From contig CAJARJ010000009.1 of assembly GCA_903944345.1 (NCBI GenBank), positions 65,875 to 129,874 of the forward strand: 64,000 nucleotides of DNA, in the 5' to 3' direction. Every line of letters begins with the position of its first letter. Positions within the stretch are counted from its first letter, which is position 1. This DNA comes from Candidatus Omnitrophota bacterium. GTDB lineage: Bacteria > Omnitrophota > Gorgyraeia > Zapsychrales > Fredricksoniimonadaceae. The position numbers were made by a program, and so were the translations under genes. The notes beneath the pieces were generated by a model that searched no databases, had not been told where the DNA came from, and saw nothing but the letters and a program-made list of their open reading frames with translations. This document shows positions 1 through 64,000 of this stretch, in pieces.

Positions 1-198
1 GTTTTCAAAACTTTCATTACATTCGAAAGGAATATGATACTCATGCCCCTTGAAGGTCAATGACGAGCAACCCCAAAGACGGGTCAAAAAGTGAACAGAC
101 ATCCCCTCTTCCGCAAAGCGCTGCTTGTAATACCATATCTCGGGCTCATAATAATCCCCCTCCATCAGTATGCCAATTTTCTTTCCGCCTGCCATCAT
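1..198 (-). CDS. DJ-1/PfpI-like protein, N-terminal part (CDS runs off window start)
   Basis: Manual translation of the minus strand from ATG at 198 gives MMAGGKKIGILMEGDYYEPEIWYYKQRFAEEGMSVHF... with no stop before the window edge. The KKIGIL..G....E pattern is typical of DJ-1/PfpI. Its start overlaps the stop of the upstream gene (ATGA). It is absent from the ORF track because no stop lies in the window. Confidence 0.35.
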   Translation of the reverse strand, partial: MMAGGKKIGILMEGDYYEPEIWYYKQRFAEEGMSVHFLTRLWGCSSLTFKGHEYHIPFECNESFEN

Positions 199-1793
199 GA
201 CGCTCCCTTGTATCGGACTGCCAACATGGTAATATCATCGGATTGAGGAGCATCCAGCACGAAACCTTGAACTTCCTCGCGCATCCGCAGAATGATATCC
301 TTGACTGATTGCTTCTGAATTTGCCGTAAAATAGTTTTCAGGCGTTCTTCCGAAAACTGTTCCTGAGCGGCATTCATGGCTTCGGTAACACCGTCAGTAT
401 AAAGAAAAACGGTATCCCCGGGCTTGATAAGCATCGAATTGTTTTGCGAAAGTTTGTTTTCCATAACGCCCATAACAAAACCGCCCGGAACTTTGAGATA
501 ATTAAAACAACCCAGATGGTCACAATTTTCGATAGGATCATGACAATCGCCACAGCAGCTGCGGTCAAAGACCAACGGCGGATTGTGCCCGGCATTGCAG
601 AACTGCAATTCTCCGGTCTGGATATTAAGAATCGCACAAAAAACCGTAACAAACTGACACGTGGAATTGTCCGGATACATAATATTGTTAACCCGGGTCA
701 GGATCTCGTCAGTAGAAAGGCCGCGCTTGGCTTCATTCTTGATCAAGGTTTTACTGATGGCCATAAACAAGGCCGCCGGAACGCCTTTCCCGGAAACATC
801 ACCAATAACAAAACACAGCCTGTGATCATCAACAAAAAAGAAATCATAAAAATCCCCGCCTACTTCCTTGGCCGGATCCATCAAAGCAAACAAGTCAAAC
901 TCTTTACGTTCAGGGAACTCTACCGGAAGCATGCTGGCCTGAATATCTTTGGCAATACGTAATTCGCTCTCCATGCGTTCACGGGCCGCAGTTTCGGCCT
1001 TCAGATTCTCGATGAACCTTTTGATCGACACCTGAATAAGCTCAATAGCCAGCGAAGGATCTTTGCCAAAAAAACGAATAACCTCATCCTTGCCCATGGT
1101 AAAGACTTCGAGGTCCTCCTCGCAAACGGCAGAGCAAGTCCTCTCCTTGTAGGGAGAGAAAATTCCCATTTCCCCGATAACATCTCCCTCACCTACAACT
1201 TTCTTGATCTCAACCAGTCGAATAGCACCTTTGGCAATATAAAACATCCGGTCAGCAGGATCCCCGGCCTTGAAAAGAGTCTCACCCTGTCTGAAGGTTT
1301 CTTTCTTCATAAACTCGAGCGGCCAGCGGCAGACACAATCAGAAGCTCCGGAAGAAGATTTGCCTCCGTTTGGCTTTCCGTCATGACAGCAGGAGTTGGT
1401 CTTTACCAGAGTCAGGATGTTGCGGCCATCTTCCCGGCGATAAATGACATCGTCCATAATCTGGCGAATCATGAATATCCCAAGTCCACCAATACGCCGC
1501 GCCTCCATCGGAGCCGTAACGTCCGGAGCAGCTAATGCCAACGGATTAAACTCAATTCCGGAATCAATAATCGTAATCTCAAGACAGTGCTCCTGATTAA
1601 GAACAACAATCTCCAGATCACCTTCTGAACCGGGATAAGCGTAATTTATAACGTTAACCAGAGCTTCTTCGCAAGCAAGCTGAACCTTATCGATTGTTTC
1701 TTTCTTGAAATACTGCCGTGCAGCCGCATCGCGAATAAACACGAACATGCTCTCAAGATTGCCGAGTTTTGCGGGCAAACAAAGTCGTTCCAT
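195..1793 (-). CDS. Three-domain signalling protein: RsbW/SpoIIAB-like anti-sigma kinase (HATPase) + cNMP-binding domain + PP2C/SpoIIE phosphatase
   Basis: The N-terminal part has the GGLGIFMIRQIMDDV HATPase_c motif. The middle part is CAP_ED-like (GEMGIF...C). The C-terminal part carries the PP2C/SpoIIE motifs FYDFF..GDVSGKGVPAALFMA and DGVTEA. Cys-rich inserts are present (CCHDG..CVC and CCGDCHDPIENCDHLGC). Confidence 0.75.
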   Translation of the reverse strand: MERLCLPAKLGNLESMFVFIRDAAARQYFKKETIDKVQLACEEALVNVINYAYPGSEGDLEIVVLNQEHCLEITIIDSGIEFNPLALAAPDVTAPMEARRIGGLGIFMIRQIMDDVIYRREDGRNILTLVKTNSCCHDGKPNGGKSSSGASDCVCRWPLEFMKKETFRQGETLFKAGDPADRMFYIAKGAIRLVEIKKVVGEGDVIGEMGIFSPYKERTCSAVCEEDLEVFTMGKDEVIRFFGKDPSLAIELIQVSIKRFIENLKAETAARERMESELRIAKDIQASMLPVEFPERKEFDLFALMDPAKEVGGDFYDFFFVDDHRLCFVIGDVSGKGVPAALFMAISKTLIKNEAKRGLSTDEILTRVNNIMYPDNSTCQFVTVFCAILNIQTGELQFCNAGHNPPLVFDRSCCGDCHDPIENCDHLGCFNYLKVPGGFVMGVMENKLSQNNSMLIKPGDTVFLYTDGVTEAMNAAQEQFSEERLKTILRQIQKQSVKDIILRMREEVQGFVLDAPQSDDITMLAVRYKGAS

Positions 1794-1798
1794 AGGAT

Positions 1799-2134
1799 TT
1801 ACTCTGTCCAGGAATCCTGCAGGGTCATAAAATTATCCAGACCACTCATTTTAATGACATTCAATATTGCGGGGGCCGCAGCAACCATAAAGATATGAGC
1901 ATCCACTCCGATCTTCTGTTTTGCGAAAATGATCACACGCAATCCGGCGCTGGAGATATACTCCAGGTTCTTGGCTATAAAAACCAGCTTGGTTACACCT
2001 TGACCCGCGTACTGCTTGATCTCGGTCTGAAGAGCTTCCGAATTAGTGGCATCCAGTCGACCGATCAACTCGACTTTGACAACCTTATTGGCACATACTA
2101 CGCTAAATCTGGAATCCATAGTCTGTTTCTCCAT
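1799..2134 (-). CDS. STAS-domain anti-sigma-factor antagonist (RsbV/SpoIIAA-like)
   Basis: The protein is 111 aa and has the conserved phosphorylatable Ser motif YISSAGLRVII. It sits between the PP2C fusion protein and GlgX. Confidence 0.8.
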   Translation of the reverse strand: MEKQTMDSRFSVVCANKVVKVELIGRLDATNSEALQTEIKQYAGQGVTKLVFIAKNLEYISSAGLRVIIFAKQKIGVDAHIFMVAAAPAILNVIKMSGLDNFMTLQDSWTE

Positions 2135-2149
2135 TTATGATACATTCCC

Positions 2150-4282
2150 CTATCGGGTCTTTTTCCCTACCAGTATGACCACCGAGCGAGACCCCAGCAT
2201 AAAAGCGGATTGATCCGCTAATTCCACTTCTTTGCCCGGCTGCCAGATATCCTGGGGAGCCGGAGCATCCGTATTGGCAAAAACATGCCAAATCATCCCC
2301 GAAGGAAGCTGGGGCAATTCAAAAAGAGCACTCTGCCAATGCATGTTCATTGCGACATAAATCCCGTTATCATCAACTGTCCCGCCTTTGGCATGATGAC
2401 CACACAAAAGAAATGCAATCCGGCGACTTTCCGGGGACCAGTCAACATCCCAGGCCTTCTGACCGTGCCAGGTAATATCGGCATAACCACTGCCCATATA
2501 ATCCCTGTTCTGAAAATGAGCACGATTTCGCAATACCGGATGCGCTTTTCTGAAAGCGATCATCTGGCTGAAAAAATTGAACAACTCGCGATTTTTTTTT
2601 AGCATACGCCAGTCAATCCAGGAGATTTCATTGTCCTGGCAATAAGCGTTATTGTTACCCCATTGCGTATTGGCAAACTCATCCCCCGCCAGAATCATCG
2701 GAGTACCCTGACTGACCAGCAGCAGTGCGGCAGCATTTTTCATCTGCTTGATACGCAAACAATTGACCGCCGGATCTTCAGTCTCTCCCTCAACACCGCA
2801 ATTCCAGCTATCATTGTCATTCGATCCGTCAGAATTATTTTCGCCGTTGGCTTCATTATGCTTGTCATTATACGAAACCATGTCATAAAGAGTAAAGCCG
2901 TCGTGGGCAGTAATAAAATTGACCGACGCACAGGCCCCACGACCTTCCCATGAATACAAATCCGGAGACCCCTGCAATCTCTGTGCGACCGCTCCCAGCA
3001 TTCCGGGTTCACCTTTAATAAATTTGCGGATATCATCGCGGTATTTTCCGTTCCATTCGGCCCAACGACCCCATGCAGGAAAAGATCCCACCTGATATAA
3101 GCCGCCAGCATCCCAGGCTTCGGCAATCAGTTTGCATTTTCCAAGAATCGGGTCAAATGCCAAAGACTCCAAAAGCGGAGGACTATGCATGGGCGCTCCG
3201 TTTTGATCCCGGCCAAGAATCGAGGCAAGATCAAATCGGAAACCGTCCACATGATAATCCGAAGCCCAATAGCGCAGGCAATCAAGAATCATGCTGCGAA
3301 CAATCGGATTGTTACAATTAAGCGTATTGCCGCAACCGGAGAAATTGAAATAGTAGCCCTCGGGAGTCAGCAAATAATAGGTCTTATTATCGATGCCGCG
3401 ATAAGAAATATACGGGCCGCGTTCATTGCCCTCTGCGGTATGATTAAAAACAACGTCCAGAATAACTTCAATGCCGTTCTTGTGCAGTTCCTTGATCATG
3501 GTTTTGCATTCATCAACCTGCATCCCCAGTTTTCCGGTAGCCGCGAATCCGGCTTTGGGAGCAAAAAAGCCGACATTGCTGTACCCCCAGTAATTCATCA
3601 GCATTTTCCCGCTTGCAGAAGAAATGCGTGAGTTCTCGAATTCATCAAACTCGTGAATAGGCATAAGTTCAATGCAATTAACCCCAAGCTCTTTAAGATA
3701 GGCTATTTTCTCCCGAATACCGGAAAAAGTCCCCGGATGCTTGACACCCGAAGAACTATGGCGAGTAAACCCGCGCACATGCGCTTCATAAATAACCAGA
3801 TCTTCGACCGGAGTTTCCAGCGGCCGGTCGTTTTCCCAGTCAAAATCATCGAAGCAAATCCGGGCCCGGTGCTGATACGCATCCGACCAGTCCGGAGCCT
3901 TGCCCCAAACATCCCGACCACCAATTGCTTTGGCATAAGGATCCATAAGAATTTTTGTTTTGTCACAACGATGCCCTTCATGAGCATTAAAAGGGCCGTC
4001 TATGTAAAAACCATATTCGATATTTTCATAATCCAAGTCGAAAACAACCATCGTGAAAACATTGCCGATACGAAACTCGTCCTTGAAGGGTATTGTGGCA
4101 CAAGGCTTCTGCTCCCCCTTGCTGAATAACACCAAAGTACAGGATGTAGCAATGCGGGAATAAACCGAAAAATTAACCCCACCCTGAACGATTGTTGCTC
4201 CGAACGGCAAAGGTTTACCAACCCGCAGTTTGAATTTTCCGCAATCACTGTCATGGGTAGGATGCAGGTCAACCCTAAGCAT
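2150..4282 (-). CDS. glgX: Glycogen debranching enzyme GlgX (GH13 isoamylase-type)
   Basis: 710 aa. GH13 signature blocks are present: GFRFDLASILGRD, EAWDAGG and DGFTLYDMVSYNDKHNEANGE. The N-terminal region is CBM48-like. Confidence 0.85.
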   Translation of the reverse strand: MLRVDLHPTHDSDCGKFKLRVGKPLPFGATIVQGGVNFSVYSRIATSCTLVLFSKGEQKPCATIPFKDEFRIGNVFTMVVFDLDYENIEYGFYIDGPFNAHEGHRCDKTKILMDPYAKAIGGRDVWGKAPDWSDAYQHRARICFDDFDWENDRPLETPVEDLVIYEAHVRGFTRHSSSGVKHPGTFSGIREKIAYLKELGVNCIELMPIHEFDEFENSRISSASGKMLMNYWGYSNVGFFAPKAGFAATGKLGMQVDECKTMIKELHKNGIEVILDVVFNHTAEGNERGPYISYRGIDNKTYYLLTPEGYYFNFSGCGNTLNCNNPIVRSMILDCLRYWASDYHVDGFRFDLASILGRDQNGAPMHSPPLLESLAFDPILGKCKLIAEAWDAGGLYQVGSFPAWGRWAEWNGKYRDDIRKFIKGEPGMLGAVAQRLQGSPDLYSWEGRGACASVNFITAHDGFTLYDMVSYNDKHNEANGENNSDGSNDNDSWNCGVEGETEDPAVNCLRIKQMKNAAALLLVSQGTPMILAGDEFANTQWGNNNAYCQDNEISWIDWRMLKKNRELFNFFSQMIAFRKAHPVLRNRAHFQNRDYMGSGYADITWHGQKAWDVDWSPESRRIAFLLCGHHAKGGTVDDNGIYVAMNMHWQSALFELPQLPSGMIWHVFANTDAPAPQDIWQPGKEVELADQSAFMLGSRSVVILVGKKTR

Positions 4283-4636
4283 TTAAGCCCCTTTCTTGAC
4301 AGTTGTCAGCGCAGAAAAAGCAGAAGGAACATCCTCAAAACTCTTGAAAAAATTATTGAAGCCTGTCATCTCCATGACATCCTGAACCTCAGGAGAAAGA
4401 CCGCTAAGCACCATAACACCCCCGATTGCTGACATCTGCTTGGCAGCCATCAACAAAAGCCTTAAGCCGGCACTGGATATGTAGGCACACGCCCCCAGAT
4501 CCATAATAACCGCCGCCCCTTTTGTCGAAGCCAAAGGCAGTATCATTTCCTGTGCGGCATTAACCGTATTACCGTCAAGACTGCCGGAAAGCTTGATAAC
4601 AGTGACCCCGTCCAGAGCTGTAGTAGTAATCTCCAT
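4283..4636 (-). CDS. STAS-domain anti-sigma-factor antagonist (second copy)
   Basis: 117 aa with motif YISSAGLRLLL. It abuts the glgX start with no gap. Confidence 0.8.
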   Translation of the reverse strand: MEITTTALDGVTVIKLSGSLDGNTVNAAQEMILPLASTKGAAVIMDLGACAYISSAGLRLLLMAAKQMSAIGGVMVLSGLSPEVQDVMEMTGFNNFFKSFEDVPSAFSALTTVKKGA

Positions 4637-4676
4637 TTTCTATTCCTTAATTCCGGACTGCTGTATAGTCCGGATT

Positions 4677-6497
4677 TTATGCCACAGGCGTAAGACGCAC
4701 CTTGACCTTGGGCCTATAATTTAAATTCGGTAAATCAACCGTGAGTTTCTCCGCATCAAAATTTTTCCAGGGATTACCGTCAATCCAGACCTCCGAGATA
4801 CGCACACTACCTTTAGGAAGAATATCCGGCTGAACCCGCAGAATATCCCCAGGGAAGCCATGCGGTAACGGTTTGAAATAAAGATCCAGCGGTTTCTTTG
4901 TATAAAGCAAATTCTGGTAGACCTGGGACAAATAGCATAGTTCGATCGAATGGTAACAGGCCATGGAATGACTGCCCTTCAGGCGTTCCGTTCCGAGCAG
5001 AAATGGCAACCCGTTATTAAGCACATTGAAATATACTGCGCCATCATCATGATCCAGGAAGAAGGCATTGTAGAAAGCTGCAGACTCGCGCCCCAGACGC
5101 AAATACTCGGGGTCCTTCAATACACCATGCATAATCTGATAGGCAAGAATGGCCTGCTCCTGCTGCCACCAGGCTTTACGATCGTGCCAGACATGACGAT
5201 AACAGGTTTCCCCCGGAGCCAGTTCTCTTTCCATAACGTCGTACCACCCGCCCCTCTGGACATCCATGCCGACTGTCGGCATAATGCTGGCAATCTTGCG
5301 GGCGAAATCCACATATTCCTTCTTGGATTTCAAACTGTTGATGCGTAACAAATTCCAGGCAATCTTGAGATTGTGTCCGATCACGCCCCGATTCTGCTGC
5401 CAGCCCCAGGTCTTGTCATGGCTCCAATCCTCCAGAAACTTTTCCTGAACGAACGGACTGTGCTCATAATCAGGGAAATATTTGGTAATGCAGTCGGCCG
5501 TCTCAATCAGGAAATCTTCGTGCTTCTTGTCGCCGGTGGCCAGCCAGAGATTGATCAAATAAGCTGGCGCATGATCTCCCAGCGAATTCCAGTTCTTGCG
5601 TCCGCGGTTTCTACCCAAAGATTCGTGTCTGGGATTAAGATTAACCGGATCGATATGGGAGAAATATCCGCCCTTTTCCTTGTCCAGAAAGAAACGATCA
5701 AAAAGATCAATGGTCATCTTGATATCTTTCATAATCGCCGGATCCCCGGTAATACGATAGGTCTGAGTGGGACCCGCCAGAGCATAAATCTGTTCATACA
5801 TCGGGATGCCATCATAATCATCACCGAATTCCGAGGCAAAGACCTTATGCTCCCGGCCATGCTTGATATCAATACCGTGGTACCAGTAGACCACATTCTC
5901 ATCCGTGTCATAGAAACGCATATGATCGCGCAGATACTGAGTCCCCTTCTCTGCCGCCTCCAGAAAACGATCTTCTCCGGTCAAAAGAAACGCCGAGGCC
6001 ATTCCATAGACCATCCGCGAAATGGTATCTGTCTCCTGACGATGATCCTCTTTACGCTCCCCGGTCAAAGATATCATCGTACGATAGTTGTTGTAATCGA
6101 TGGTATCCGGACTTCCGAACTCTGCCTTGATATAGAAATCCGCAATACTGGCGGCCTGCTTGATCCACCAATCAGCTTCTTCAAAACGGAAGTTATCGAT
6201 CCCGGCTCCAGAAAAAACAAGCACCTTGGCATCAAAATCAAACCCCTTGCTCTCGGGATAAAAAATACCCATTACATACAAGTACTGCCCTTCAACCATG
6301 AGCTCATCGATCCTGCCGGTATAATCGCACCATCCTTCACCTAAATTACGTGGTCCACGAGCATAAGCAGAAGCGGTCAGACGGGCGAAGAACTCTCTGC
6401 CATCAGTTGTTTTGAGGGAAAATGTACGTTTGTCCTTATCAAATCTGGTGACATAGCCGGCAATCGTATCTGAAAACTCGAACTTGATGTTATTCAT
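4677..6497 (-). CDS. AGE-family (N-acylglucosamine 2-epimerase / cellobiose 2-epimerase-like) six-hairpin protein with N-terminal extension
   Basis: 606 aa. The C-terminal block RKAWWQQEQAILAYQ matches the K.WW.Q.EA pattern of the AGE/YihS superfamily. An N-terminal beta-rich domain of about 200 aa precedes it. Confidence 0.5.
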   Translation of the reverse strand: MNNIKFEFSDTIAGYVTRFDKDKRTFSLKTTDGREFFARLTASAYARGPRNLGEGWCDYTGRIDELMVEGQYLYVMGIFYPESKGFDFDAKVLVFSGAGIDNFRFEEADWWIKQAASIADFYIKAEFGSPDTIDYNNYRTMISLTGERKEDHRQETDTISRMVYGMASAFLLTGEDRFLEAAEKGTQYLRDHMRFYDTDENVVYWYHGIDIKHGREHKVFASEFGDDYDGIPMYEQIYALAGPTQTYRITGDPAIMKDIKMTIDLFDRFFLDKEKGGYFSHIDPVNLNPRHESLGRNRGRKNWNSLGDHAPAYLINLWLATGDKKHEDFLIETADCITKYFPDYEHSPFVQEKFLEDWSHDKTWGWQQNRGVIGHNLKIAWNLLRINSLKSKKEYVDFARKIASIMPTVGMDVQRGGWYDVMERELAPGETCYRHVWHDRKAWWQQEQAILAYQIMHGVLKDPEYLRLGRESAAFYNAFFLDHDDGAVYFNVLNNGLPFLLGTERLKGSHSMACYHSIELCYLSQVYQNLLYTKKPLDLYFKPLPHGFPGDILRVQPDILPKGSVRISEVWIDGNPWKNFDAEKLTVDLPNLNYRPKVKVRLTPVA

Positions 6498-6790: not shown

Positions 6791-7249
6791 ATGCTTAAAA
6801 TATCAACAAAAACCCGCTATGCCATCCGTGCCCTGGTAGAAATGGCTAATGACAGCAAGCAACTTCATTTGCTGGATCAACTTGCCCTGCATCAAAACAT
6901 TTCCAGAAAATACCTCGAAAACATTTTTGCACTGCTTAAAAAAGGTTCCATCGTGCAAAGCAAAGTCGGCAAGAATGGCGGCTTTTACCTGCGAGAGAAA
7001 CTGGAAACCATTACCCTGTTAAGAATTTACGAATTGATGGAAGGAGAGGTCGAAGTTGTCAGCTGCCGGAGCAGGAAAAGAAGCTGCCCTCGCCTGTCAT
7101 TCTGCCCGGTCAGTCCGGTATGGAGCGAGGTCAGCGCGCAAATAAAAAAGACACTTGCCTCAAAAAGTCTCAAAGATCTTTGTGAAATCAATCGAACAGA
7201 AGCCAACTGCGAGGAATCAAAGCCCGCAAGTAAAAAAAGATCAGCATAA
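6791..7249 (+). CDS. Rrf2-family transcriptional regulator (IscR-like)
   Basis: The N-terminal HTH reads MLKISTKTRYAIRALVEMA. A three-Cys cluster (CRSRKRSCPRLSFCP) could ligate an Fe-S centre. The gene is divergent from the glgX/STAS operon. Confidence 0.8.
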   Translation: MLKISTKTRYAIRALVEMANDSKQLHLLDQLALHQNISRKYLENIFALLKKGSIVQSKVGKNGGFYLREKLETITLLRIYELMEGEVEVVSCRSRKRSCPRLSFCPVSPVWSEVSAQIKKTLASKSLKDLCEINRTEANCEESKPASKKRSA

Positions 7250-7286: not shown

Positions 7287-7885
7287 CTACCGTCTTTTCT
7301 TTTTGGTGTCCACAACCCCGGGCGCTGATTTTACATGAGCTTTAATTAAATTCAAAATTTCGGTATTGCCCCTGCTTGTGGCCAACGACAGCGGCGTTGC
7401 TCCATTGTCCATCTTTGCGTTGACATCAGCTCCGTTTTGCAGCAGCATCCTGGCAACCTCGACATGCCCCTGCTTGCGCCCCTTAAAGCAGGCAAAATGC
7501 AAGGGAGTTGCCCCGTCCTTGGCTCTAGCGTTCACCATTGCACCACGATCAAGCAGCATCCTCGCGGCCTTGGTCTGGGCCTGAGAAGCCGCAACATGCA
7601 AAGGCGTTCCATCATTACCATTCGTAACATCTATTTTAACATGATACTCATCCAGAAGAACTTTAACCACTTCCAATTGTCCCCGCCCGACAGCCCAGTG
7701 TAGCGGCGTCTTGCCCTGTTCATCCTTGCTGTACAGCAGCGACTGATCATGATCCTGATCCAGTAATGTTCTAAGCAAGGTAACATCACCGCTTTTGGCG
7801 GCTTCATGAATAGGCTCCGAAAAAGAAATCCCAGGCGCCAGCGAACAGCACAATAGGATGAGAACAAGAGAGAATAAACTTTTCA
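7287..7885 (-). CDS. Secreted ankyrin-repeat protein
   Basis: At least four ANK repeats are present (G.TPLH.A....L.VV.LL). I trimmed the start to GTG at 7885, which has an AGGAG Shine-Dalgarno; this gives a signal-peptide-like N-terminus (VKSLFSLVLILLCCSLA). Confidence 0.7.
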
Positions 7886-8015
7886 CAAGGACTCCTTTCC
7901 TGACTCGATGATTTGCTGCTATTATAATGCGCAATAAAGCCTCAGAATATATTTCTTTACAAAATTTTATGTTCCAGACTTCTCTACATGGAACAAACAA
8001 TAAAGGAGTTCAGCA

Positions 8016-8762
8016 ATGAAACCTGTCAACGTCGGGATTACGGGAGCCGCCGGAAACATCGGAACCACTCTGCAGGAAGGCCTGGCTCGGGATTATTCTT
8101 TATCTCTTTATGACACAAAAGAGATTTTAACAGCCCCCGGTGCCAGATTTATAAAAACTAATCTAAGCGAAGAAACCACCCTTCACGGTCTTTTTGACGG
8201 TCTTGATGCACTTATTCACCTGGCCGGCAACCCGCGCCCTGATGCTCCCCGGAAACAAACCCTGCAAAACAACTTTCTCGCCACCAGCCTTGTGTTTGAA
8301 GAGGCCCGCCGCGCCGGAATTAAAAAAATCGTTTTTGCAAGCAGCAATTTCTACCATGAAAATGATCTTGCCCAAACACTCCACAATCCCAACCGGGGAT
8401 TGATCACTCTGGATGCGCCCCCCAGCCCCGTCTGCCTTTATGGCGAATCAAAAGTTTATGGAGAGAACCTGGGCCGACATCTCTCTTATACAGGTGGTTT
8501 AAAGTTTGCCGCTTTAAGAATCGGATGGACGGTTCCGCAGGACACCCCAAGACCATATGACAGTCCTTATATGCGGGCTGTATTTTGCAGCAAAAGGGAT
8601 CTGGTGCAGGCTTTTGTAAAAGCACTGGAAGTTGACACAGATTTTATCACTGCTTTTGCTGTCAGCAACAATTCCCGGGCAGTATTCGATCTGGATGAAA
8701 CCAGAAAAACTCTTGGCTTTATCCCCCAGGACAATGCCGAAAACTATTTCAGGAAAGACTAA
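8016..8762 (+). CDS. NAD-dependent epimerase/dehydratase family (SDR) protein
   Basis: Rossmann motif VGITGAAGNIGT at the N-terminus; 248 aa. Confidence 0.7.
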   Translation: MKPVNVGITGAAGNIGTTLQEGLARDYSLSLYDTKEILTAPGARFIKTNLSEETTLHGLFDGLDALIHLAGNPRPDAPRKQTLQNNFLATSLVFEEARRAGIKKIVFASSNFYHENDLAQTLHNPNRGLITLDAPPSPVCLYGESKVYGENLGRHLSYTGGLKFAALRIGWTVPQDTPRPYDSPYMRAVFCSKRDLVQAFVKALEVDTDFITAFAVSNNSRAVFDLDETRKTLGFIPQDNAENYFRKD

Positions 8763-9427
8763 CCCTTCCGCTGATGCCCGTTAAAAAGAAATGAAAACAT
8801 AAAATAAAGGGCGATCAGAAAATACAGTGTAAAAGCCAGCCCCGTGCTGACAAAAGCCAGAAAAGCGGCCACAAGATAGGCCACCGGTCCAAACAAGAAC
8901 GCGGCAACAATAGCCTTGCGATATGCGGGCAACGGAATGCCTTCCTTCAAAATCTTGCAATCGAAAATACCATACCATCTGACAGCCACCAATGCCCCAC
9001 CGGTCAAGGCCATCACCACTCCGTAAAAAGCCACGGCCAGAGGATTCTGTGGATAATCGCCTACAAGCGCAGTGGGGAAAGGGATAAACGAAACAAACAA
9101 CAGTACAAATACATTCAACCAGAACAGAATAATATTAAATCCACGAAAACTGTCAAAGATGCGATGATGATTCACCCAAACAATACAAACTGTCAAAAAA
9201 CTGATGATCCAGCTCAAGAATTTTGGCAGAAGACCCCGTAAAGCATCCAGTAAAACAGACACCGAATCTGCCTGGCCGATATGAGGAACCTTGATCTCCA
9301 GGATCAGCAGCGTGACAATAATGGCAAAAATACCATCGCTAAAAGCCTCCACACGGCTTTTGGTCAGTTCACCATAACGAAAAGTTTTCTGATCCGCCCT
9401 ATCGGCTGATAAATGTTCCGCTGCCAT
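8759..9427 (-). CDS. DUF1211 / TMEM175-like membrane protein (putative K+ channel family)
   Basis: RVEAFSDGIFAIIVTLLILEI signature, with multiple TM segments. Confidence 0.55.
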   Translation of the reverse strand: MAAEHLSADRADQKTFRYGELTKSRVEAFSDGIFAIIVTLLILEIKVPHIGQADSVSVLLDALRGLLPKFLSWIISFLTVCIVWVNHHRIFDSFRGFNIILFWLNVFVLLFVSFIPFPTALVGDYPQNPLAVAFYGVVMALTGGALVAVRWYGIFDCKILKEGIPLPAYRKAIVAAFLFGPVAYLVAAFLAFVSTGLAFTLYFLIALYFMFSFLFNGHQRKG

Positions 9428-18347: not shown

Positions 18348-19256
18348 TCAATCCGCAACGCGTGACCCAGCCTGCGCCCCGCGCAATGTTCTATAATTCT
18401 TATCCCTGTACATCAACATATCTGCTCTTTTGAGCAACTCTTCTATTGTCTGGGGTTTCTGCGGATTGTAATAAAGGATCCCGAGGCTGAATGTCAGCTT
18501 GCGTGGCGAATTGGTGTTATATTTTGTCTTTTCAAGATTTTCTTTCAGTCGCTTGTGCAACGCATCCAGGCTCTCGGACTTTGCTTCCAAAGCAAGTATT
18601 GCGAACTCATCGCCTCCGACTCTGCCAATAACATCCGAACTGCGGAACGTCTTTTTGAGAACATCGCCTGCTGTCACCAGCGCCCGGTCTCCCTCCTCGT
18701 GTCCAAACTTGTCATTAATCTGTTTCATATTATCCAGGTCTGCATAAATTAGAATAAGCCCCCTGCCCGAACGGTTAGACAACTTCAAAAGCTGATTGGC
18801 ATAGATCAAAAACCCCCTGCGATTACTCACGCCTGTCAAAACATCCACAAGTGCAAGCTCCCGCATTGTCACTTCCGCTTTCTTTAACCTGTCAAACTGG
18901 CTGACCATCGGCTTATAAAATAAAATATACAGCGCGGGGGAAAGCAAGACGATAAGCATGACTGAAGCAACTATGGGCATATCCGTCGTATGCAGATCAG
19001 GAAGCAGCATAAACAAATACTTTGCCAATAATCCACATCCCAGTATGGAGAGCGTCAGGACAAAAAGCAGCCTTCGGGGAGTGTACATTCTTTCAAAACT
19101 GTCCGGCCTGCATTTTCTATCGGAGGCACCAGCCGGGTTTAAAGTGGGATGATAACCCTCTTTCTTTGCCATATTAACAGTCTTTTCCTCAACAGCCCGA
19201 CGATAAAGTGTCGGGCTGATCTTGTCCTGAAGGAACCTCAAAACATCAATTCGCAT
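18348..19256 (-). CDS. Membrane-anchored GGDEF diguanylate cyclase
   Basis: An N-terminal TM region is followed by the RVGGDEFAIL active-site motif. Confidence 0.8.
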   Translation of the reverse strand: MRIDVLRFLQDKISPTLYRRAVEEKTVNMAKKEGYHPTLNPAGASDRKCRPDSFERMYTPRRLLFVLTLSILGCGLLAKYLFMLLPDLHTTDMPIVASVMLIVLLSPALYILFYKPMVSQFDRLKKAEVTMRELALVDVLTGVSNRRGFLIYANQLLKLSNRSGRGLILIYADLDNMKQINDKFGHEEGDRALVTAGDVLKKTFRSSDVIGRVGGDEFAILALEAKSESLDALHKRLKENLEKTKYNTNSPRKLTFSLGILYYNPQKPQTIEELLKRADMLMYRDKNYRTLRGAQAGSRVAD

Positions 19257-26858: not shown

Positions 26859-28118
26859 TCATAAATCCTTTCCGGAAACAGGAAGGGTAAAATAAAATGT
26901 CGCCCCGGGACCAGAATTGTTCCTGGCATCCAGGAGGCCTCCGTGCGCCTCTACTATAGAGCGACTGATCGACAATCCCATGCCCAAACCATCGAGCTTG
27001 CTCGTAAAAAAATGGCTGAACAATTTACTCAGGCTTTCCTCGGGAATACCACAGCCCGAATCCGTGACCTCAACCATGATCGAATTGGCATCCTGGAGAA
27101 AAGTTCGGAGAGTTAATTGCCTGGAATCACTGCGCTCATCCATGGCTTCCAGACTGTTGCTGATAAGATTCAGGATGACCTGCTGCAACTGGATACGATC
27201 ACCTTCTGTTAAAGGAATATCCTCTGCCAGATTAAAAACAAGGACTTTATTTCTTGCCGTAATATGCGGCATAATCAGCAGCACCGTGTCCCTGATAAGA
27301 ATATTGATATCAAGAGGCTCCAGTGATGGCTTGGTCTTTTTTAACAAAGTCCGCAACCGCCGAATAACCTCACAAGCCCGCTGGTCATCACTAATAATAA
27401 ACTGCAAAATTTCATGCAATTGAGGCTCTCTGTCTACAAGTAAACGCTGACCTGCCTGAGCATATGAGAGAATGGCTGTAAGCGGCTGACTGATCTCATG
27501 CGCCAGCGATGAAACGAATTCCGCCAGCTTGCCGACTCTTGTCACATGCAAAAGCTCCTCGCGCTGTTCCGCAATCTCCATATCCCGCTGCTTTATCAAT
27601 GTCGTATCAGTTTTGATCCCTACATAGTGAGTGACAATCCCGTTTTCATCCCGCACAGGAGAAATGCGCAGAAAACACCAGAATTTCTCACCATTCTTCT
27701 TAAAACTGAGCATTTCTCCATAAAAGATTTTTCCTTGCTCCAGTGTCTTTCTGATCTCGTGAGAAACGCGCTGATCAAAATCAGGCCCATAGAGAAGAAA
27801 ATAGTCTTTGCCTATAATGTCACCCTTCATATAACCCGTTATTTTATAAAATGAAGGATTGGCATAAACAACGAGAAATGCCTGATTTCTGGCTTCAATA
27901 ATAAAAATTCCATCAGCTGCGGCTTCCATGGCTTTGGTTCGGATATGGATTTGTTCTTCTGCAATCTTCTCTCGATCCGCCCCCAGCTGAAGCTGCCCTT
28001 GCTTGACATTCAACTCATCCGTTTTCTGGCGAACTTGATCTTCAAGACTTTGACGGGTTATTTTGTTTAATAAAGATTTTTTGCCCGGTTTAACTTTACC
28101 AACAGATTTCTTTATCAT
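26859..28118 (-). CDS. PAS-domain sensor histidine kinase (FixL-like)
   Basis: An N-terminal coiled coil, a PAS domain, the HisKA H-box HEISQPLTAIL and an HATPase domain (GLGMGLSISRSIVEAHGG). Confidence 0.8.
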   Translation of the reverse strand: MIKKSVGKVKPGKKSLLNKITRQSLEDQVRQKTDELNVKQGQLQLGADREKIAEEQIHIRTKAMEAAADGIFIIEARNQAFLVVYANPSFYKITGYMKGDIIGKDYFLLYGPDFDQRVSHEIRKTLEQGKIFYGEMLSFKKNGEKFWCFLRISPVRDENGIVTHYVGIKTDTTLIKQRDMEIAEQREELLHVTRVGKLAEFVSSLAHEISQPLTAILSYAQAGQRLLVDREPQLHEILQFIISDDQRACEVIRRLRTLLKKTKPSLEPLDINILIRDTVLLIMPHITARNKVLVFNLAEDIPLTEGDRIQLQQVILNLISNSLEAMDERSDSRQLTLRTFLQDANSIMVEVTDSGCGIPEESLSKLFSHFFTSKLDGLGMGLSISRSIVEAHGGLLDARNNSGPGATFYFTLPVSGKDL

Positions 28119-29317: not shown

Positions 29318-29405
29318 CGGAGAAGCAGGGATTCGAACCCTGGAGTCGCTATTAACGACCACACGCTTTCCAGGCGTGCGCCTTCAACCACTCGGCCACC
29401 TCTCC
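29318..29405 (-). tRNA. tRNA-Ser (anticodon GGA)
   Basis: The minus-strand sequence GGAGAGGTGGCCGAGTGGTTGAAGGC...CUGGAAA...GGGTTCGAATCCCTGCTTCTCCG folds as a class II tRNA with a long variable arm. It has G73 and no encoded CCA. Confidence 0.85.
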
Positions 29406-30033: not shown

Positions 30034-32154
30034 TTACAAAAGAATCCGCGCGTCAGCAGCGAATGAACCATCTTTGTTGGTGAACAAAGGATTGATATCA
30101 ACTTCTTTAACATACGGGGCGATGCGCTGAACGGCCATTAATGTTTTGACGATAGACTCCTTGTGCGCGCCCTGTCCGCGATAACCATCTAGCAACTTGC
30201 GGGCTTTAATTTCGCCAATCATTCTGACAGCATCCTGTTCGGCAAACGGTACAACTCGGAACGTAACATCTTTCAAAACTTCAACAAAAATGCCGCCCAT
30301 CCCGAACATCACCGCCGGACCGAACTGCGGATCTTTGTTCATGCCAACGATACACTGAATGCCATCAACCATCTGGCACAAGTTAACACCCATAATCTTT
30401 GCTTTGGGAGCGTTTTTGGCAACATTCTCCATCATCCGCGCAAAAGCTGCGCGCATTTCGTCGGCATTTTTGATATTCAAAATAACGCCGCCAACATCTG
30501 ATTTATGAATAATATCCACCGAGGCAATCTTCATGGCCACCGGATACATCTTCTTGGTTTCAGCCTCACGGACAGCATCCTCCGCGGTAACCGCCATGCC
30601 CCATTTAGGCATCGGGACTCCACATGCTTCCAGAACCTCCCTGGATTCATGTTCAAGTAAATACGTACGGCCTTCCTTGCGGACACGCTCAATAAGCTCA
30701 AGCGCTTGGGCTGGAGGAAGAACCACCGCAGCTTTCTCCTTGGGACGCGAAGAAATCTCCTGCCAATGATAAAGTGTCTTTAAACCGGAAACAGCTTCCC
30801 TGACTTCAGTCATGGCAGGGATCTGGTTCTCATTCAATATCTGAATAGCAGTCCGGGAGCGCTCGCCACCGACCATGGTAACCACAATCGGCTTGTTACG
30901 CTTAACCGTATTGTATTCTTCCACAATCGCCTTGGCGACCTCAACCGGATCGGTTACTGCGGTTTCGCAATAAAGAACAATGACTGCATGAATTCTTGCT
31001 TCATTTAAAGCGATCTTGACCGCCTCCCGATAGCTCTTGCAACCACCGCCACCCGTAACATCAATCGGATTCTTTGTACTGCCAAACTCGGGCATGGTAC
31101 AACGGAATTTTTCCTCAAGCCAAACCGGATCTTCCAGAAGCTTGATCCCGGAATGTTCGCATTCATCGGTTGCGCTCACCCCAATACCGCCGCCATTGGT
31201 AATGATTACGGCATCGTTGCCCTTGGGCATCGGCATACAAAGCACCGAACAGGCACAGAAAGCCTGCGTAAAATTCCTGGCCCGCATCATTCCCAACTGA
31301 TTGAAAGCTGCCGTATAAATAGTATCTGACCCGGCCAATGAGCCTGTATGCGACGCCGCTGCCTGAGCTCCTCGTGAGGAGGAGCCAGACTTGAGTACAA
31401 CCACCGGCTTTTTAACCTGGGTCGTCATAAACTTGCGCCCGTCTTTAATCCCTTCCATATAAATCAGGATAACGCTGGTATTAGGATCATCATTAAAATA
31501 CTCAATGAGTTCTTTTTCCCCTATGTCGGCCTTGTTCCCAAGACTGACCACCGCGGCAAGACCAATTTTTTCCATCATGGTCCACCCCATCAGAGAAATC
31601 GCCAATGCTCCACTCTGGGACACAAAAGCAATCTTCCCGGCAGCCAAATTCTGAGGGCCAAAAGATGCATTCAAATGCGCAGGCGTATAAACAAAACCAA
31701 AAGTATTCGGCCCCAGAAGAGCAATATTGTTTTTGTCGGCAATATCCTTAAGAGCCTGCTCTTCTTTGGTCTTCCCTATTTCAGAAAAACCGGAAGTAAT
31801 AATAACTGTTCCCTTGGTGTTCTTTTTAACGCACTCCTGCAAAACTCCCTCAACCAAAGGCGCCGGGACAGCAATAACCACAAAGTCAATATCGCCGGGG
31901 ACATCCAGCAAAGAAGAAAAACAGGGAACGCCAAGAATTTCCCTGGCTTTCTTGTTAATAGGATAAAGTTTTCCCTTAAAACCATTCTGAACAATATTAT
32001 TCAGAATCTGATAACCGATCTTTCCCGGCTCAGCAGAAGCCCCCACAACAGCAACACTTCTAGGGTTAAAAACATGTTGCAGGTTCTGAACCTTGACTTT
32101 GTTATCTTCTACCTGCCCGCAAGCTACATGACTGTCACTAGACATAATAACCAT
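30034..32154 (-). CDS. Acetyl-CoA synthetase (ADP-forming), fused alpha/beta (CoA-binding + ATP-grasp)
   Basis: CoA-binding N-terminus (VAVVGASAEPGKIGY), succinyl-CoA synthetase-like flavodoxin domain and a C-terminal ATP-grasp; 706 aa. Confidence 0.8.
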   Translation of the reverse strand: MVIMSSDSHVACGQVEDNKVKVQNLQHVFNPRSVAVVGASAEPGKIGYQILNNIVQNGFKGKLYPINKKAREILGVPCFSSLLDVPGDIDFVVIAVPAPLVEGVLQECVKKNTKGTVIITSGFSEIGKTKEEQALKDIADKNNIALLGPNTFGFVYTPAHLNASFGPQNLAAGKIAFVSQSGALAISLMGWTMMEKIGLAAVVSLGNKADIGEKELIEYFNDDPNTSVILIYMEGIKDGRKFMTTQVKKPVVVLKSGSSSRGAQAAASHTGSLAGSDTIYTAAFNQLGMMRARNFTQAFCACSVLCMPMPKGNDAVIITNGGGIGVSATDECEHSGIKLLEDPVWLEEKFRCTMPEFGSTKNPIDVTGGGGCKSYREAVKIALNEARIHAVIVLYCETAVTDPVEVAKAIVEEYNTVKRNKPIVVTMVGGERSRTAIQILNENQIPAMTEVREAVSGLKTLYHWQEISSRPKEKAAVVLPPAQALELIERVRKEGRTYLLEHESREVLEACGVPMPKWGMAVTAEDAVREAETKKMYPVAMKIASVDIIHKSDVGGVILNIKNADEMRAAFARMMENVAKNAPKAKIMGVNLCQMVDGIQCIVGMNKDPQFGPAVMFGMGGIFVEVLKDVTFRVVPFAEQDAVRMIGEIKARKLLDGYRGQGAHKESIVKTLMAVQRIAPYVKEVDINPLFTNKDGSFAADARILL

Positions 32155-32168
32155 CCTTGAATTATGTA

Positions 32169-37496: not shown

Positions 37497-37533
37497 TCGA
37501 AAAATAAAGAACAATTTCCTGATTTTCCCTTGA

Positions 37534-57224: not shown

Positions 57225-57288
57225 GTCACCTCACCTGTTTGATTTTTATTATATCGCAATGCTTTTTAAAGGTTCAATGGAAATCGTA

Positions 57289-58305: not shown

Positions 58306-58306
58306 C

Positions 58307-59710: not shown

Positions 59711-59717
59711 CCTCCGG

Positions 59718-61777: not shown

Positions 61778-61780
61778 TGC

Positions 61781-64000
<2,220 letters not shown>

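What the first reader, a model, noticed from the sequence alone, without database searches (positions are those of the whole stretch)
195..1793. Single polypeptide combining RsbW-like kinase, cNMP-binding domain and PP2C phosphatase, with Cys-rich inserts
Opposing partner-switch activities (kinase and phosphatase) are fused around a CAP-type effector domain. Two Cys clusters are present: CCHDG...CVC in the linker and CCGDCHDPIENCDHLGC inside the PP2C fold. These could bind a metal or act as a redox switch. Such a single-chain switch would give ligand-dependent bidirectional control of STAS phosphorylation.
Basis: seen in the sequence. Interest (0 to 1): 0.6.

Follow-up and report, generated by a model that had tools for sequence, protein, structure and literature searches.

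The report
Fused kinase–cNMP sensor–phosphatase switch protein
This is a real single gene joining a protein kinase, a cyclic-nucleotide sensor and the opposing phosphatase; it is a fused, lineage-specific version of a kinase/phosphatase pair that sits with two small target proteins around a glycogen-debranching gene in several bacterial phyla, and reportedly in the cyanobacterium Synechocystis, so it is a new variant of a known kind of switch.

Summary
ORF 195..1793 (minus strand, 532 aa) is intact. It carries HATPase_c_2 (aa 6-131), cNMP_binding (165-243) and SpoIIE/PP2C (322-528), all above Pfam cut-offs. Kinase N/G1/G2 boxes, the cNMP phosphate-binding cassette (G207, E208, R218) and the PP2C metal-binding Asp residues are invariant in 68 full-length homologues.

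The fusion is natural. Candidatus Omnitrophota relatives carry the same operon with the kinase as a separate gene.

The operon (AGE-like epimerase / STAS / GlgX / STAS / kinase+PP2C) recurs in Bacteroidota, Elusimicrobiota, Latescibacterota and Gemmatimonadota MAGs, with other sensor domains on the phosphatase. Its gene content and order match the published Synechocystis icfG cluster (slr1855-slr1861).

The closest functional precedent is Vibrio fischeri SypE (kinase-REC-PP2C acting on the STAS protein SypA).

Cys clusters: in the PP2C insert, C414-x2-C417-x6-C424-x4-C429 is kept in every insert-bearing homologue found (9 of 9). This points to a probable Zn site, but it is untested. In the linker only C135 and C155 are semi-conserved.

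Verdict: new variant of a known kind; moderate interest.

The parts
195..1793 (-). Whole gene: 532-aa RsbW-like kinase / cNMP-binding / PP2C fusion protein. Its stop overlaps the start of the downstream DJ-1-like gene (ATGA at 195-198).
1401..1778 (-). HATPase_c_2 (RsbW/SpoIIAB-type Ser kinase) domain, aa 6-131. N-box E43/N47, G1 box D77-x-G79, G2 box G103-G-L-G106.
1323..1400 (-). Linker at the fusion junction, aa 132-157, predicted disordered (pLDDT about 32). Holds C135, C136, C153 and C155; only C135 and C155 are semi-conserved.
1065..1301 (-). cNMP_binding (CRP/PKA-type) domain, aa 165-243. Phosphate-binding cassette G207-E208-M-G210...R218-T219-C220-S-A222.
930..1058 (-). Long helix, aa 246-288, running from the C-helix of the cNMP domain into the PP2C domain (conserved ELRIAxxIQxSMLP). 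Presumed signal-transmitting linker.
   Evidence: PMC12143880
210..830 (-). SpoIIE/PP2C phosphatase domain, aa 322-528. Metal-binding motifs GGD314FYD, GD332VSGKG, TD467G, SD519D520IT.
507..554 (-). Cys4 motif C414-x2-C417-x6-C424-x4-C429. C414 and C417 lie in a 15-aa insert after the NAGHNPPLV strand. C424 and C429 flank the hairpin turn.
1799..2134 (-). STAS1 (anti-sigma-factor-antagonist type). Probable true start is ATG at 2119, giving 106 aa. Phospho-acceptor Ser in YISS*AGL (S62 of the long ORF).
2150..4282 (-). GlgX glycogen-debranching enzyme (TIGR02100, 718 bits), lying between the two STAS genes.
4283..4636 (-). STAS2, 117 aa. Phospho-acceptor S55 in YISS*AGL. Its stop abuts the glgX start.
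4677..6497 (-). AGE-family (GlcNAc 2-epimerase-like) 606-aa protein, the first gene of the conserved cluster.
1..198 (-). 5' part of the downstream gene, cut by the window edge. Its orthologues in relatives are DJ-1/PfpI proteins.
   Evidence: no Pfam hit for the 66-aa fragment

Best explanation
The gene encodes a bifunctional partner-switching regulator. An N-terminal RsbW/SpoIIAB-type serine kinase and a C-terminal RsbU/SpoIIE-type PP2C phosphatase act on the conserved serine of the two small STAS proteins encoded on either side of glgX. A central CRP-type cyclic-nucleotide-binding domain sets the balance between the two activities.

It arose by fusing the kinase and phosphatase genes of a conserved cluster (AGE-like enzyme / STAS / GlgX / STAS / kinase / PP2C). 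That cluster occurs in several phyla, and by published gene content and order it corresponds to the Synechocystis icfG cluster.

Inferred mechanism: cNMP binding moves the C-helix of the sensor. This helix continues as the long helix aa 246-288 into the PP2C regulatory (switch) region, and so changes phosphatase activity relative to the kinase. The phosphorylation state of STAS1 and STAS2 then controls an output linked to glycogen and carbon metabolism. That output could be direct binding to enzymes or release of a sigma factor.

The C414/C417/C424/C429 motif is most likely a lineage-specific structural metal (Zn) site, stiffening a hairpin that by sequence position lies near the PP2C flap.

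Shown: gene integrity, domains, catalytic and ligand-binding residues, fusion versus split forms, cluster conservation, and Cys conservation. Inferred: cNMP regulation, the direction of the switch, the targets, and metal binding.
For: - Domains are above Pfam cut-offs.
- Kinase motifs align with RsbW 6m36 and SpoIIAB 1th8.
- All catalytic and cassette residues checked are present in 68 of 68 full-length homologues.
- The PP2C fold matches RssB, Rv1364c, SiaA, SpoIIE and RsbX. The cNMP fold matches GlxR, CAP and Mtb CRP.
- STAS1 and STAS2 have Ser at the SpoIIAA phospho-site.
- L006 and L008 carry the same operon with a separate 138-139-aa kinase gene upstream of a 387-aa cNMP-PP2C gene.
- The same cluster with orthologous STAS (42-60% identity), GlgX (69-76%), AGE-like (70-72%) and kinase (44-52%) genes is found in Bacteroidota, Elusimicrobiota, Latescibacterota and Gemmatimonadota MAGs.
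- Literature on slr1855-slr1861: Slr1861 phosphorylates Slr1856 and Slr1859, and IcfG dephosphorylates Slr1856 (PMC12329169; PMC8670252).
- SypE is a kinase-REC-PP2C protein that controls the STAS protein SypA (PMC10120452).
- A helical-linker and switch-element mechanism has been proposed as general for sensor-PP2C phosphatases (PMC12143880).
- The model shows one continuous helix at aa 246-288.
- Cys4: C414 and C417 are the only invariant positions within the 15-aa insert (9 of 9 insert-bearing sequences including the query, others 6 of 9 or fewer). C424 and C429 are also 9 of 9. One split protein, P0040, also carries the motif.
Against: - There are no biochemical data for any member of this family.
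- No nucleotide cyclase was found among the 30 further window ORFs scanned.
- CRP/FNR-type domains can bind ligands other than cNMP.
- The model is weak at the Cys insert (pLDDT about 59-66) and the linker (about 32). No coordinates were available, so clustering of the Cys residues was not measured.
- Sequence orthology to Slr1855-1861 was not tested.
- An NJ tree without support values places the insert in two separate clades.
Confidence: 0.7

Rival explanations
1. Classical sigma-factor partner switch. The kinase domain is mainly an anti-sigma factor that holds an alternative sigma factor, and unphosphorylated STAS releases it. The output is then transcriptional, not enzyme-directed. The fused PP2C simply resets the STAS proteins.
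For: The Synechocystis cluster kinase Slr1861 is reported as an anti-SigC factor (PMC12329169). The more distant fused homologue in L005 lies two genes from an ECF-type sigma factor gene. NCBIfam's best match for the kinase domain is RsbW.
Against: No sigma factor gene is present in the conserved cluster in any of the loci examined. In SypE/SypA, which has the same tripartite design, the STAS protein is the output rather than the kinase. Covalent attachment to a large, probably dimeric, phosphatase may hinder sigma binding; this last point is inference only.
Confidence: 0.3
2. The Cys residues form a redox or iron-sulfur sensor, either FNR-like (linker Cys plus C224) or a redox-sensitive Cys4 site in the PP2C hairpin. 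Oxygen or thiol redox state would then be a second input gating phosphatase activity. The site would not be a structural Zn site.
For: The protein has 18 Cys in 532 aa. C135/C155 and C424/C429 co-occur in 21 of 69 sequences. C224 is present in 67 of 68. Pyruvate:ferredoxin oxidoreductase at 32169-35747 suggests an anaerobic lifestyle. By sequence position the hairpin lies near the PP2C flap (my own knowledge of PPM folds).
Against: The spacing does not match FNR (C-x2-C-x5-C plus one central Cys) or ferredoxin motifs. Only 2 of the 4 linker Cys are conserved. The linker pair and the hairpin pair also occur independently of each other (3 and 4-6 sequences). C224 is conserved even in homologues with no linker Cys. 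The cNMP cassette is invariant. Pfam finds nothing for either peptide.
Confidence: 0.15
3. The central domain is a cNMP-binding fold that binds a different ligand, or none, and serves mainly as a dimerisation or scaffold module. The kinase/phosphatase balance would then be set by something else, for example substrate level or partner proteins.
For: CRP/FNR-superfamily domains are known to bind diverse ligands (general knowledge). No cyclase was found in the window. Orthologous clusters use entirely different sensors, dCache-HAMP or HAMP.
Against: G207, E208, G210, R218 and A222 are present in 68 of 68 homologues and T219 in 64 of 68. These match the CAP positions E72, R82 and S83 that contact cAMP. 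The best structural and sequence matches are the cAMP-binding proteins GlxR and Mtb CRP. The cNMP-PP2C module recurs with many other partner domains, as expected of a real sensor-effector unit.
Confidence: 0.2
4. The fusion is an artefact: an assembly error, or a frameshift that joined two separate genes.
For: Split versions of the same genes exist in relatives.
Against: There are 68 distinct full-length homologue clusters from many independent assemblies with the same three domains. Two representatives at the 50%-identity clustering level match colinearly over aa 1-530. The ORF is continuous, with a linker that aligns across homologues.
Confidence: 0.01

Closest known systems
SypE of Vibrio fischeri (regulator of the STAS protein SypA)
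   Same: Same tripartite design in the same order: an N-terminal RsbW-like Ser kinase, a central sensor domain and a C-terminal PP2C phosphatase. One polypeptide both phosphorylates and dephosphorylates a single-domain STAS protein (SypA Ser56). That STAS protein is encoded in a polysaccharide locus and is the downstream output (PMC10120452).
   Different: The central domain here is cNMP_binding, not a receiver (REC) domain, so the input would be a second messenger and not a phosphorelay. There are two STAS substrates. The context is glycogen debranching, not exopolysaccharide synthesis. Sequence relatedness to SypE was not tested.
[quoted passage not shown] PCC 6803 (slr1855-slr1861)
   Same: According to the literature, gene content and order are the same: AGE-type epimerase (Slr1855), STAS (Slr1856), isoamylase/GlgX (slr1857), STAS (Slr1859), PP2C phosphatase IcfG (slr1860) and RsbW-like kinase Slr1861. 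The kinase phosphorylates both STAS proteins, and the cluster is linked to carbon and glucose metabolism (PMC12329169; PMC8670252).
   Different: Here the kinase and phosphatase form one polypeptide, the kinase comes first, and a cNMP-binding domain lies between them. The sensor domain of IcfG is not known to me. Orthology was inferred from gene content only and was not tested with Synechocystis sequences.
Rv1364c of Mycobacterium tuberculosis; OsaC of Streptomyces coelicolor (OsaC architecture from my own memory)
   Same: These are single polypeptides that combine RsbU-type PP2C and RsbW-type kinase domains. Rv1364c is the best PDB sequence hit (3ke6, E 2.5e-11) and a top fold match. As I recall it, OsaC is RsbW-like kinase / PAS / GAF / PP2C, which would be the same domain order as here.
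   Different: Rv1364c has the order PAS-PP2C-kinase-STAS, with its own substrate domain attached. OsaC uses PAS/GAF sensors and acts on a SigB system. Neither has a cNMP-binding domain or a glgX context.
Sensor-PP2C phosphatases regulated through a helical linker (RsbU, RsbP, RsbZ, P. aeruginosa RssB)
   Same: An N-terminal sensor is joined to the PP2C domain by an alpha-helical linker that controls the switch helices of a phosphatase dimer (PMC12143880). RssB 3f7a is the top fold match. The model has a continuous helix at aa 246-288 entering the PP2C domain.
   Different: The cNMP_binding domain is not among the sensors listed in the passages of that paper retrieved here. Dimerisation and linker behaviour of this protein are untested.

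Membership tests
RsbW/SpoIIAB-type serine kinase (HATPase_c_2) | Bergerat-fold ATP-binding motifs: N-box (E...N), G1 box (D-x-G) and G2 box (G-G-x-G) | tested here: met
   E43, N47, D77, G79 and G103 align with RsbW and SpoIIAB and are present in 68 of 68 homologues. Pfam score 89.6 bits against a cut-off of 27.4.
RsbW/SpoIIAB-type serine kinase (HATPase_c_2) | Phosphorylates the cognate STAS protein; binds a sigma factor | not testable with these tools
   Needs biochemical assays.
SpoIIE/RsbU-type PP2C (PPM) phosphatase | Metal-coordinating Asp residues in the motifs GGDxxD, GDVxGxG, TDG and DD(I/V)T | tested here: met
   D314, D332, D467, D519 and D520 are invariant in 84 aligned sequences and present in 68 of 68. 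Pfam score 158 bits. Fold matches to RssB, Rv1364c, SiaA, SpoIIE and RsbX.
CRP/PKA-type cyclic-nucleotide-binding domain | Phosphate-binding cassette G-E-x-G...R-[ST]-A on a beta-roll | tested here: met
   G207, E208, G210, R218 and A222 are present in 68 of 68 and T219 in 64 of 68. Pfam score 55.9 bits against a cut-off of 27.5. Matches to GlxR, CAP and Mtb CRP.
CRP/PKA-type cyclic-nucleotide-binding domain | Actual binding of cAMP or cGMP | not testable with these tools
   Needs ITC or a similar assay. No cyclase gene was found in the 30 further window ORFs scanned.
SypE-type tripartite regulator | N-terminal Ser kinase plus C-terminal PP2C in one chain, with a STAS substrate encoded nearby | tested here: met
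SypE-type tripartite regulator | Central receiver (REC) domain | tested here: not met
   The central domain is cNMP_binding and there is no Response_reg hit. The protein is therefore an architectural analogue, not a SypE family member.
icfG-type glgX-associated partner-switching cluster | Gene set and order: AGE-like / STAS / GlgX / STAS / kinase and PP2C | tested here: met
   Window genes. The same order is found in L001-L004, L006, L008 and L087-L090. The Synechocystis order comes from the literature.
icfG-type glgX-associated partner-switching cluster | Sequence orthology to Slr1855-Slr1861 | not tested
   No Synechocystis sequences could be fetched. The primary paper PMC93959 is not held.
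Cys4 structural zinc site (knuckle or ribbon type) | Four conserved Cys arranged as two short knuckles | tested here: met
   C414-x2-C417 and C424-x4-C429 are present in 9 of 9 insert-bearing sequences including the query, while the intervening residues vary. P0040 also carries the motif.
Cys4 structural zinc site (knuckle or ribbon type) | The four thiols converge in three dimensions; metal is present | tested here: inconclusive
   The model has pLDDT 59-66 in this region and no coordinates were returned. Pfam has no match for the peptide. Metal content is not testable here.
FNR-type [4Fe-4S] sensor | N-terminal C-x2-C-x5-C plus one central Cys, all conserved | tested here: not met
   The linker Cys spacing differs. 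C136 is present in 8 of 68 and C153 in 3 of 68. The linker is predicted disordered.

The most novel reading that the evidence does not exclude
The AGE-like / STAS / GlgX / STAS / kinase (+PP2C) cluster is found in at least five phyla here, and by the literature also in Synechocystis. It may be a sigma-independent partner switch in which the two phospho-regulated STAS proteins directly bind and gate the glycogen-debranching enzyme and/or the AGE-like enzyme. In this Omnitrophota lineage the switch would have been compacted into one chain that integrates a cyclic-nucleotide signal and, through the Cys4 hairpin near the PP2C flap, a metal or redox signal. If so, it would assign a post-translational function to the long-unexplained icfG cluster.
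Probability: 0.2. Interest if true: 0.7.

Novelty: new variant of a known kind. Interest (0 to 1): 0.45.

Why it matters
Partner-switching modules (STAS protein, RsbW-like kinase, PP2C phosphatase) are widespread, but their inputs and non-sigma outputs are mostly unknown.

This gene shows a clean natural fusion of the two opposing enzymes around a second-messenger sensor. That is strong 'Rosetta-stone' evidence that the three parts work on the same substrates. In my searches I found no characterised example of a cyclic nucleotide as an input to a partner switch.

The genomic context matters more than the fusion. The fused gene belongs to a five-gene cluster built around glgX, which is conserved across distant phyla and matches the Synechocystis icfG cluster. 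That cluster's link to carbon metabolism has been known since the 1990s without a mechanism. The compact Omnitrophota version, with one enzyme and two substrates, would be a convenient system for reconstituting it in vitro.

Tried and rejected
1. Frameshift or assembly artefact. Rejected: the ORF is continuous and there are 68 full-length homologue clusters.

2. Genome-contig scan with alignment A1. It returned mostly PP2C-only hits. Many apparent 'full-length' matches were a PP2C gene followed by a separate kinase gene that the tool had joined. Only L007 was a true same-order fusion, so this scan did not measure how widely the architecture is distributed.

3. Structure model. No coordinates are returned, so distances between the Cys residues could not be measured. 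The insert and the linker have low confidence.

4. Pfam on the two Cys-rich peptides. The only hit was a chance match (FPV060, E 0.031).

5. FNR-like Fe-S reading of the linker Cys. Rejected as the main explanation: only 2 of the 4 Cys are semi-conserved, the spacing is wrong, and the cNMP cassette is invariant.

6. Idea that the linker pair and the hairpin pair form one four-Cys site. Not supported: each pair also occurs without the other.

7. Search for a nucleotide cyclase. None was found among 30 further window ORFs. Not every ORF was scanned.

8. Literature searches for a characterised cNMP-PP2C or kinase-cNMP-PP2C protein. None was found. The primary icfG paper (PMC93959) is not held. 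PhsP (PMC12344097) turned out to be a GAF-PP2C protein unrelated to icfG.

9. Taxon names for the roughly 50%-identity group of fused homologues. None were available.
Full report
**1. The observation**

The window holds one uninterrupted 532-aa ORF at 195..1793 on the minus strand. Pfam places three domains on it, all well above the curated cut-offs:
- HATPase_c_2 at aa 6-131 (E 2e-25)
- cNMP_binding at aa 165-243 (E 4e-15)
- SpoIIE/PP2C at aa 322-528 (E 3e-46)

NCBIfam's nearest named models are RsbW, SiaA/RssB/SpoIIE and CRP. All score below the equivalog cut-offs, which is expected for a distinct family.

The quoted Cys strings are present. They correspond to C135, C136, C153 and C155 in the kinase-cNMP linker, and to C413, C414, C417, C424 and C429 inside the PP2C domain.

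All neighbouring genes lie on the same strand, with gaps of -4 to 40 nt:
- AGE-family epimerase-like protein (4677..6497)
- STAS (4283..4636)
- GlgX (2150..4282; TIGR02100, 718 bits)
- STAS (1799..2134)
- the fusion gene
- a DJ-1-like gene whose start overlaps the fusion's stop

**2. Are the three parts functional?**

The kinase domain aligns with RsbW (6m36) and SpoIIAB (1th8). It keeps the N-box E43/N47, the G1 box D77-x-G79 and the G2 box G103-G-L-G.

Across 68 full-length homologues the following are conserved:
- kinase E43, N47, D77, G79 and G103: 68 of 68
- cNMP phosphate-binding cassette G207, E208, G210, R218 and A222: 68 of 68; T219: 64 of 68
- PP2C D314, D332, S334, G335, K336, G337, D467, G468, D519 and D520: 68 of 68

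In CAP, the residues equivalent to E208, R218 and T219 are E72, R82 and S83, which contact cAMP (established knowledge). The nearest solved cNMP domains are the cAMP receptors GlxR and Mtb CRP.

An AlphaFold2 model built from 84 sequences has mean pLDDT 83.7. All three domains are confident, and a single long helix (aa 246-288) joins the sensor to the phosphatase. The ATP lid, the linker at 136-154 (pLDDT about 32) and the Cys insert (about 59-66) are weak. Foldseek's best PP2C matches are P. aeruginosa RssB, Rv1364c, SiaA, SpoIIE and RsbX.

Both STAS proteins carry Ser at the position of the SpoIIAA phospho-serine, within YISS*AGL. STAS1 probably starts at the second ATG (2119), which is preceded by GGAG. 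That gives 106 aa, the length of its orthologues.

**3. The fusion is real and natural**

The word-indexed search returned 68 full-length clusters (47-96% identity) with the same three Pfam domains. Those that carry a source name are from Candidatus Omnitrophota, except one Acidobacteriota partial (P0120). The search also returned about 50 proteins of roughly 385 aa that hold only cNMP_binding plus SpoIIE.

In the exhaustive search of 1.84 billion representatives clustered at 50% identity, only two (P0027 and P0074) match colinearly over aa 1-530. The exact architecture is therefore a compact family.

The next-best hits share the cNMP-PP2C module joined to other parts:
- a C-terminal kinase, which is a permuted fusion (P0123, P0124, P0190)
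- REC
- dCache-HAMP
- HAMP
- 5TMR-LYT
- a second cNMP domain
- nothing else

In L006 the same operon carries a separate 139-aa kinase gene 37 nt upstream of a 387-aa cNMP-PP2C gene. In L008 the kinase is followed by a 719-aa ORF ending in a PP2C domain, probably dCache-HAMP-PP2C by similarity to P0142, and then by a cNMP-PP2C gene. The window's gene is therefore a fusion of neighbouring kinase and phosphatase genes.

**4. The cluster it belongs to**

Relatives at 66-76% identity keep the whole neighbourhood: AGE-like / STAS / GlgX / STAS / fusion / DJ-1 / DUF1330 / cupin / DJ-1 / TPP enzyme / glyoxalase.

The 606-aa AGE-like protein is 68-89% identical across Omnitrophota, Desantisbacteria, Elusimicrobiota, Bacteroidota, Latescibacterota, Gemmatimonadota and Riflebacteria. 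Following it into other phyla gave four contexts:

| Locus | Phylum | Context |
|---|---|---|
| L087 | Bacteroidota | AGE / STAS / GlgX / STAS / 131-aa kinase / dCache-HAMP-PP2C |
| L088 | Elusimicrobiota | same five genes, then DJ-1; no adjacent PP2C |
| L089 | Latescibacterota | same five genes; a dCache-HAMP-PP2C 2.4 kb downstream |
| L090 | Gemmatimonadota | AGE / GlgX / STAS / broken kinase / HAMP-PP2C on the opposite strand |

tblastn across the loci outside the fused Omnitrophota group (L006, L008, L087-L090) shows consistent positional orthology. The STAS2 type always precedes GlgX (42-51% identity). The STAS1 type always follows it (46-60%). The kinase is 44-53% identical and the PP2C 44-60%.

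The published Synechocystis icfG cluster has the same content and order:
- Slr1855, N-acetylglucosamine 2-epimerase
- Slr1856, STAS
- slr1857, isoamylase/GlgX
- Slr1859, STAS
- IcfG, PP2C (slr1860)
- Slr1861, RsbW-like kinase

In that system Slr1861 phosphorylates both STAS proteins, IcfG dephosphorylates Slr1856, and mutants have carbon and glucose phenotypes (PMC12329169; PMC8670252). I could not fetch the Synechocystis sequences, so this correspondence rests on gene content and order only.

**5. The Cys residues**

In the PP2C domain, the stretch between the NAGHNPPLV strand and the GGFVMGV motif is a simple hairpin in most homologues.

- C424 and C429 flank the hairpin turn (C-x4-C) in 31 of 68 fused and 32 of 49 split Omnitrophota-type proteins.
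- This pair is absent from the roughly 50%-identity fused group and from the orthologous dCache/HAMP-PP2C proteins of other phyla.
- A 15-aa insert carrying C414-x2-C417 is present in the query, in 8 of 68 fused homologues and in one split protein (P0040).
- Across the nine fused sequences with the insert, the two Cys are the only invariant positions inside it. All other insert positions are conserved in 6 of 9 or fewer. C424, G428 and C429 are also present in 9 of 9.
- An NJ tree built without these regions places the insert-bearing sequences in two clades nested among insert-less ones. This means either one gain followed by losses, or two gains. The tree has no support values.

The pattern C-x2-C-x6-C-x4-C, with four invariant Cys and variable spacers, is what a Cys4 metal site looks like. 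By sequence position it lies at the start of the region that forms the PPM flap next to the active site. That placement comes from my knowledge of PPM folds and was not measured here.

In the linker, C135 (24 of 68) and C155 (28 of 68) are semi-conserved, whereas C136 (8 of 68) and C153 (3 of 68) are not. The five stand-alone kinases examined lack C135, and C155 sits in the conserved C-R-W-P-L motif at the start of the sensor. The linker pair and the hairpin pair usually co-occur (21 sequences) but also occur separately. Because all of these sequences belong to one clade, the association may simply reflect shared ancestry. C220 in the cassette (RTCS) is peculiar to this lineage; 66 of 68 homologues have Ala there.

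**6. How it most likely works**

*Shown:* a competent-looking kinase, cNMP sensor and phosphatase in one chain; two phosphorylatable STAS proteins in the same operon; and the same parts encoded as separate genes in relatives.

[quoted passage not shown] By analogy, the sensor here decides whether net phosphorylation or net dephosphorylation of STAS1 and STAS2 prevails.

*Inferred from the helical-linker and switch-element model of sensor-PP2C phosphatases* (PMC12143880), together with the continuous helix at aa 246-288: cNMP binding repositions the C-helix of the sensor and so alters the state of the PP2C dimer and switch.

The output is unknown. The invariable placement of glgX between the two STAS genes points to glycogen and carbon metabolism. 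Control of a sigma factor, as with Slr1861 and SigC, is not excluded.

**7. Novelty and score**

The architecture already exists in databases under automatic names such as 'SpoIIE family protein phosphatase'. The design principle has experimental precedent in SypE and, from my own memory, in OsaC, with Rv1364c as a related case.

The new elements are:
- a cNMP-binding sensor in this role
- the kinase-first fusion within an icfG-type cluster
- the conserved Cys4 insert
- the observation that the glgX-centred cluster spans many phyla, which I did not find noted in the literature searched

I rate this a new variant of a known kind, with an interest score of about 0.45.

Noticed in passing
window 1799-6497; L087-L090: The five-gene cluster AGE-like / STAS / GlgX / STAS / RsbW-like kinase is conserved in gene order across Omnitrophota, Bacteroidota, Elusimicrobiota and Latescibacterota, and partly in Gemmatimonadota. 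It matches the published Synechocystis slr1855-slr1861 order. The attached PP2C carries a different sensor in each lineage (cNMP, dCache-HAMP or HAMP).
   Followed up: yes
window 4677-6497 (-): The 606-aa AGE-family protein is unusually conserved (68-89% identity across at least seven phyla), about as well as GlgX and far better than the STAS proteins. Its Pfam match is modest (GlcNAc_2-epim, 57.8 bits), and it is about 200 aa longer than typical AGE enzymes as I recall them. Its function is unknown.
   Followed up: partly
L008 1428-5182: In Candidatus Omnitrophica 4484_171 the stand-alone kinase is followed by two phosphatase genes in tandem: a 719-aa ORF ending in a PP2C domain (probably dCache-HAMP-PP2C by similarity to P0142) and a 387-aa cNMP-PP2C gene. 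Their PP2C domains have nearly identical hairpin sequences. This suggests duplication followed by a sensor swap.
   Followed up: partly
P0123, P0124, P0190: A permuted fusion also exists, cNMP_binding / SpoIIE / HATPase_c_2 with the kinase at the C-terminus. The kinase has therefore been fused to the cNMP-PP2C module at either end independently.
   Followed up: partly
window 1-198 (-); L001-L004, L006, L088: The downstream gene starts at an ATGA overlap with the fusion's stop. In relatives it is a DJ-1/PfpI protein followed by DUF1330, cupin, a second DJ-1/ThiJ, a TPP-dependent enzyme and a glyoxalase. This looks like a conserved reactive-carbonyl (methylglyoxal-type) detoxification theme next to the glycogen genes.
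   Followed up: partly
window 2119-2134: The STAS1 ORF as listed is 111 aa, but its orthologues are 105-106 aa. A GGAG motif lies 8 nt upstream of the second ATG (2119), so the true start is probably M6.
   Followed up: partly
window 1134-1136 (aa C220): The cNMP phosphate-binding cassette reads R-T-C-S-A here, whereas 66 of 68 homologues have R-T-A-S-A. The extra Cys next to the ligand-contacting Arg-Thr is specific to this lineage (the query and P0001).
   Followed up: no
L088 1421-2197; L089 6214-6777: In the Elusimicrobiota and Latescibacterota loci the cluster phosphatase has no cNMP domain, or no phosphatase is adjacent. In both, a separate CRP-type or cNMP-binding protein gene lies a few kb upstream of the cluster. 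This may be chance.
   Followed up: no
window 6791-7249 (+), 7287-8000 (-), 8759-9427 (-): Upstream of the operon lie a divergently oriented Rrf2-family regulator, an ankyrin-repeat protein and a TMEM175-type K+ channel homologue. Ankyrin and TMEM175 genes also lie near the cluster in the Bacteroidota locus L087.
   Followed up: no
window 18348-19256, 26859-28118, 36039-37613: Other signalling genes are present in the window: a GGDEF diguanylate cyclase, a PAS histidine kinase and a GAF-HD_5 (HD-GYP-like) protein. No class III adenylate or guanylate cyclase was seen among the 30 ORFs scanned.
   Followed up: partly
window 30034-35747; 49882-52383; 55755-63538; tRNAs at 29318, 39351, 39593, 52483: The rest of the window holds an acetyl-CoA synthetase (ADP-forming)-like gene and pyruvate:ferredoxin oxidoreductase, consistent with an anaerobic lifestyle. 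It also holds an STT3-type oligosaccharyltransferase homologue, a type II secretion / type IV pilus gene set and four tRNA genes.
   Followed up: no
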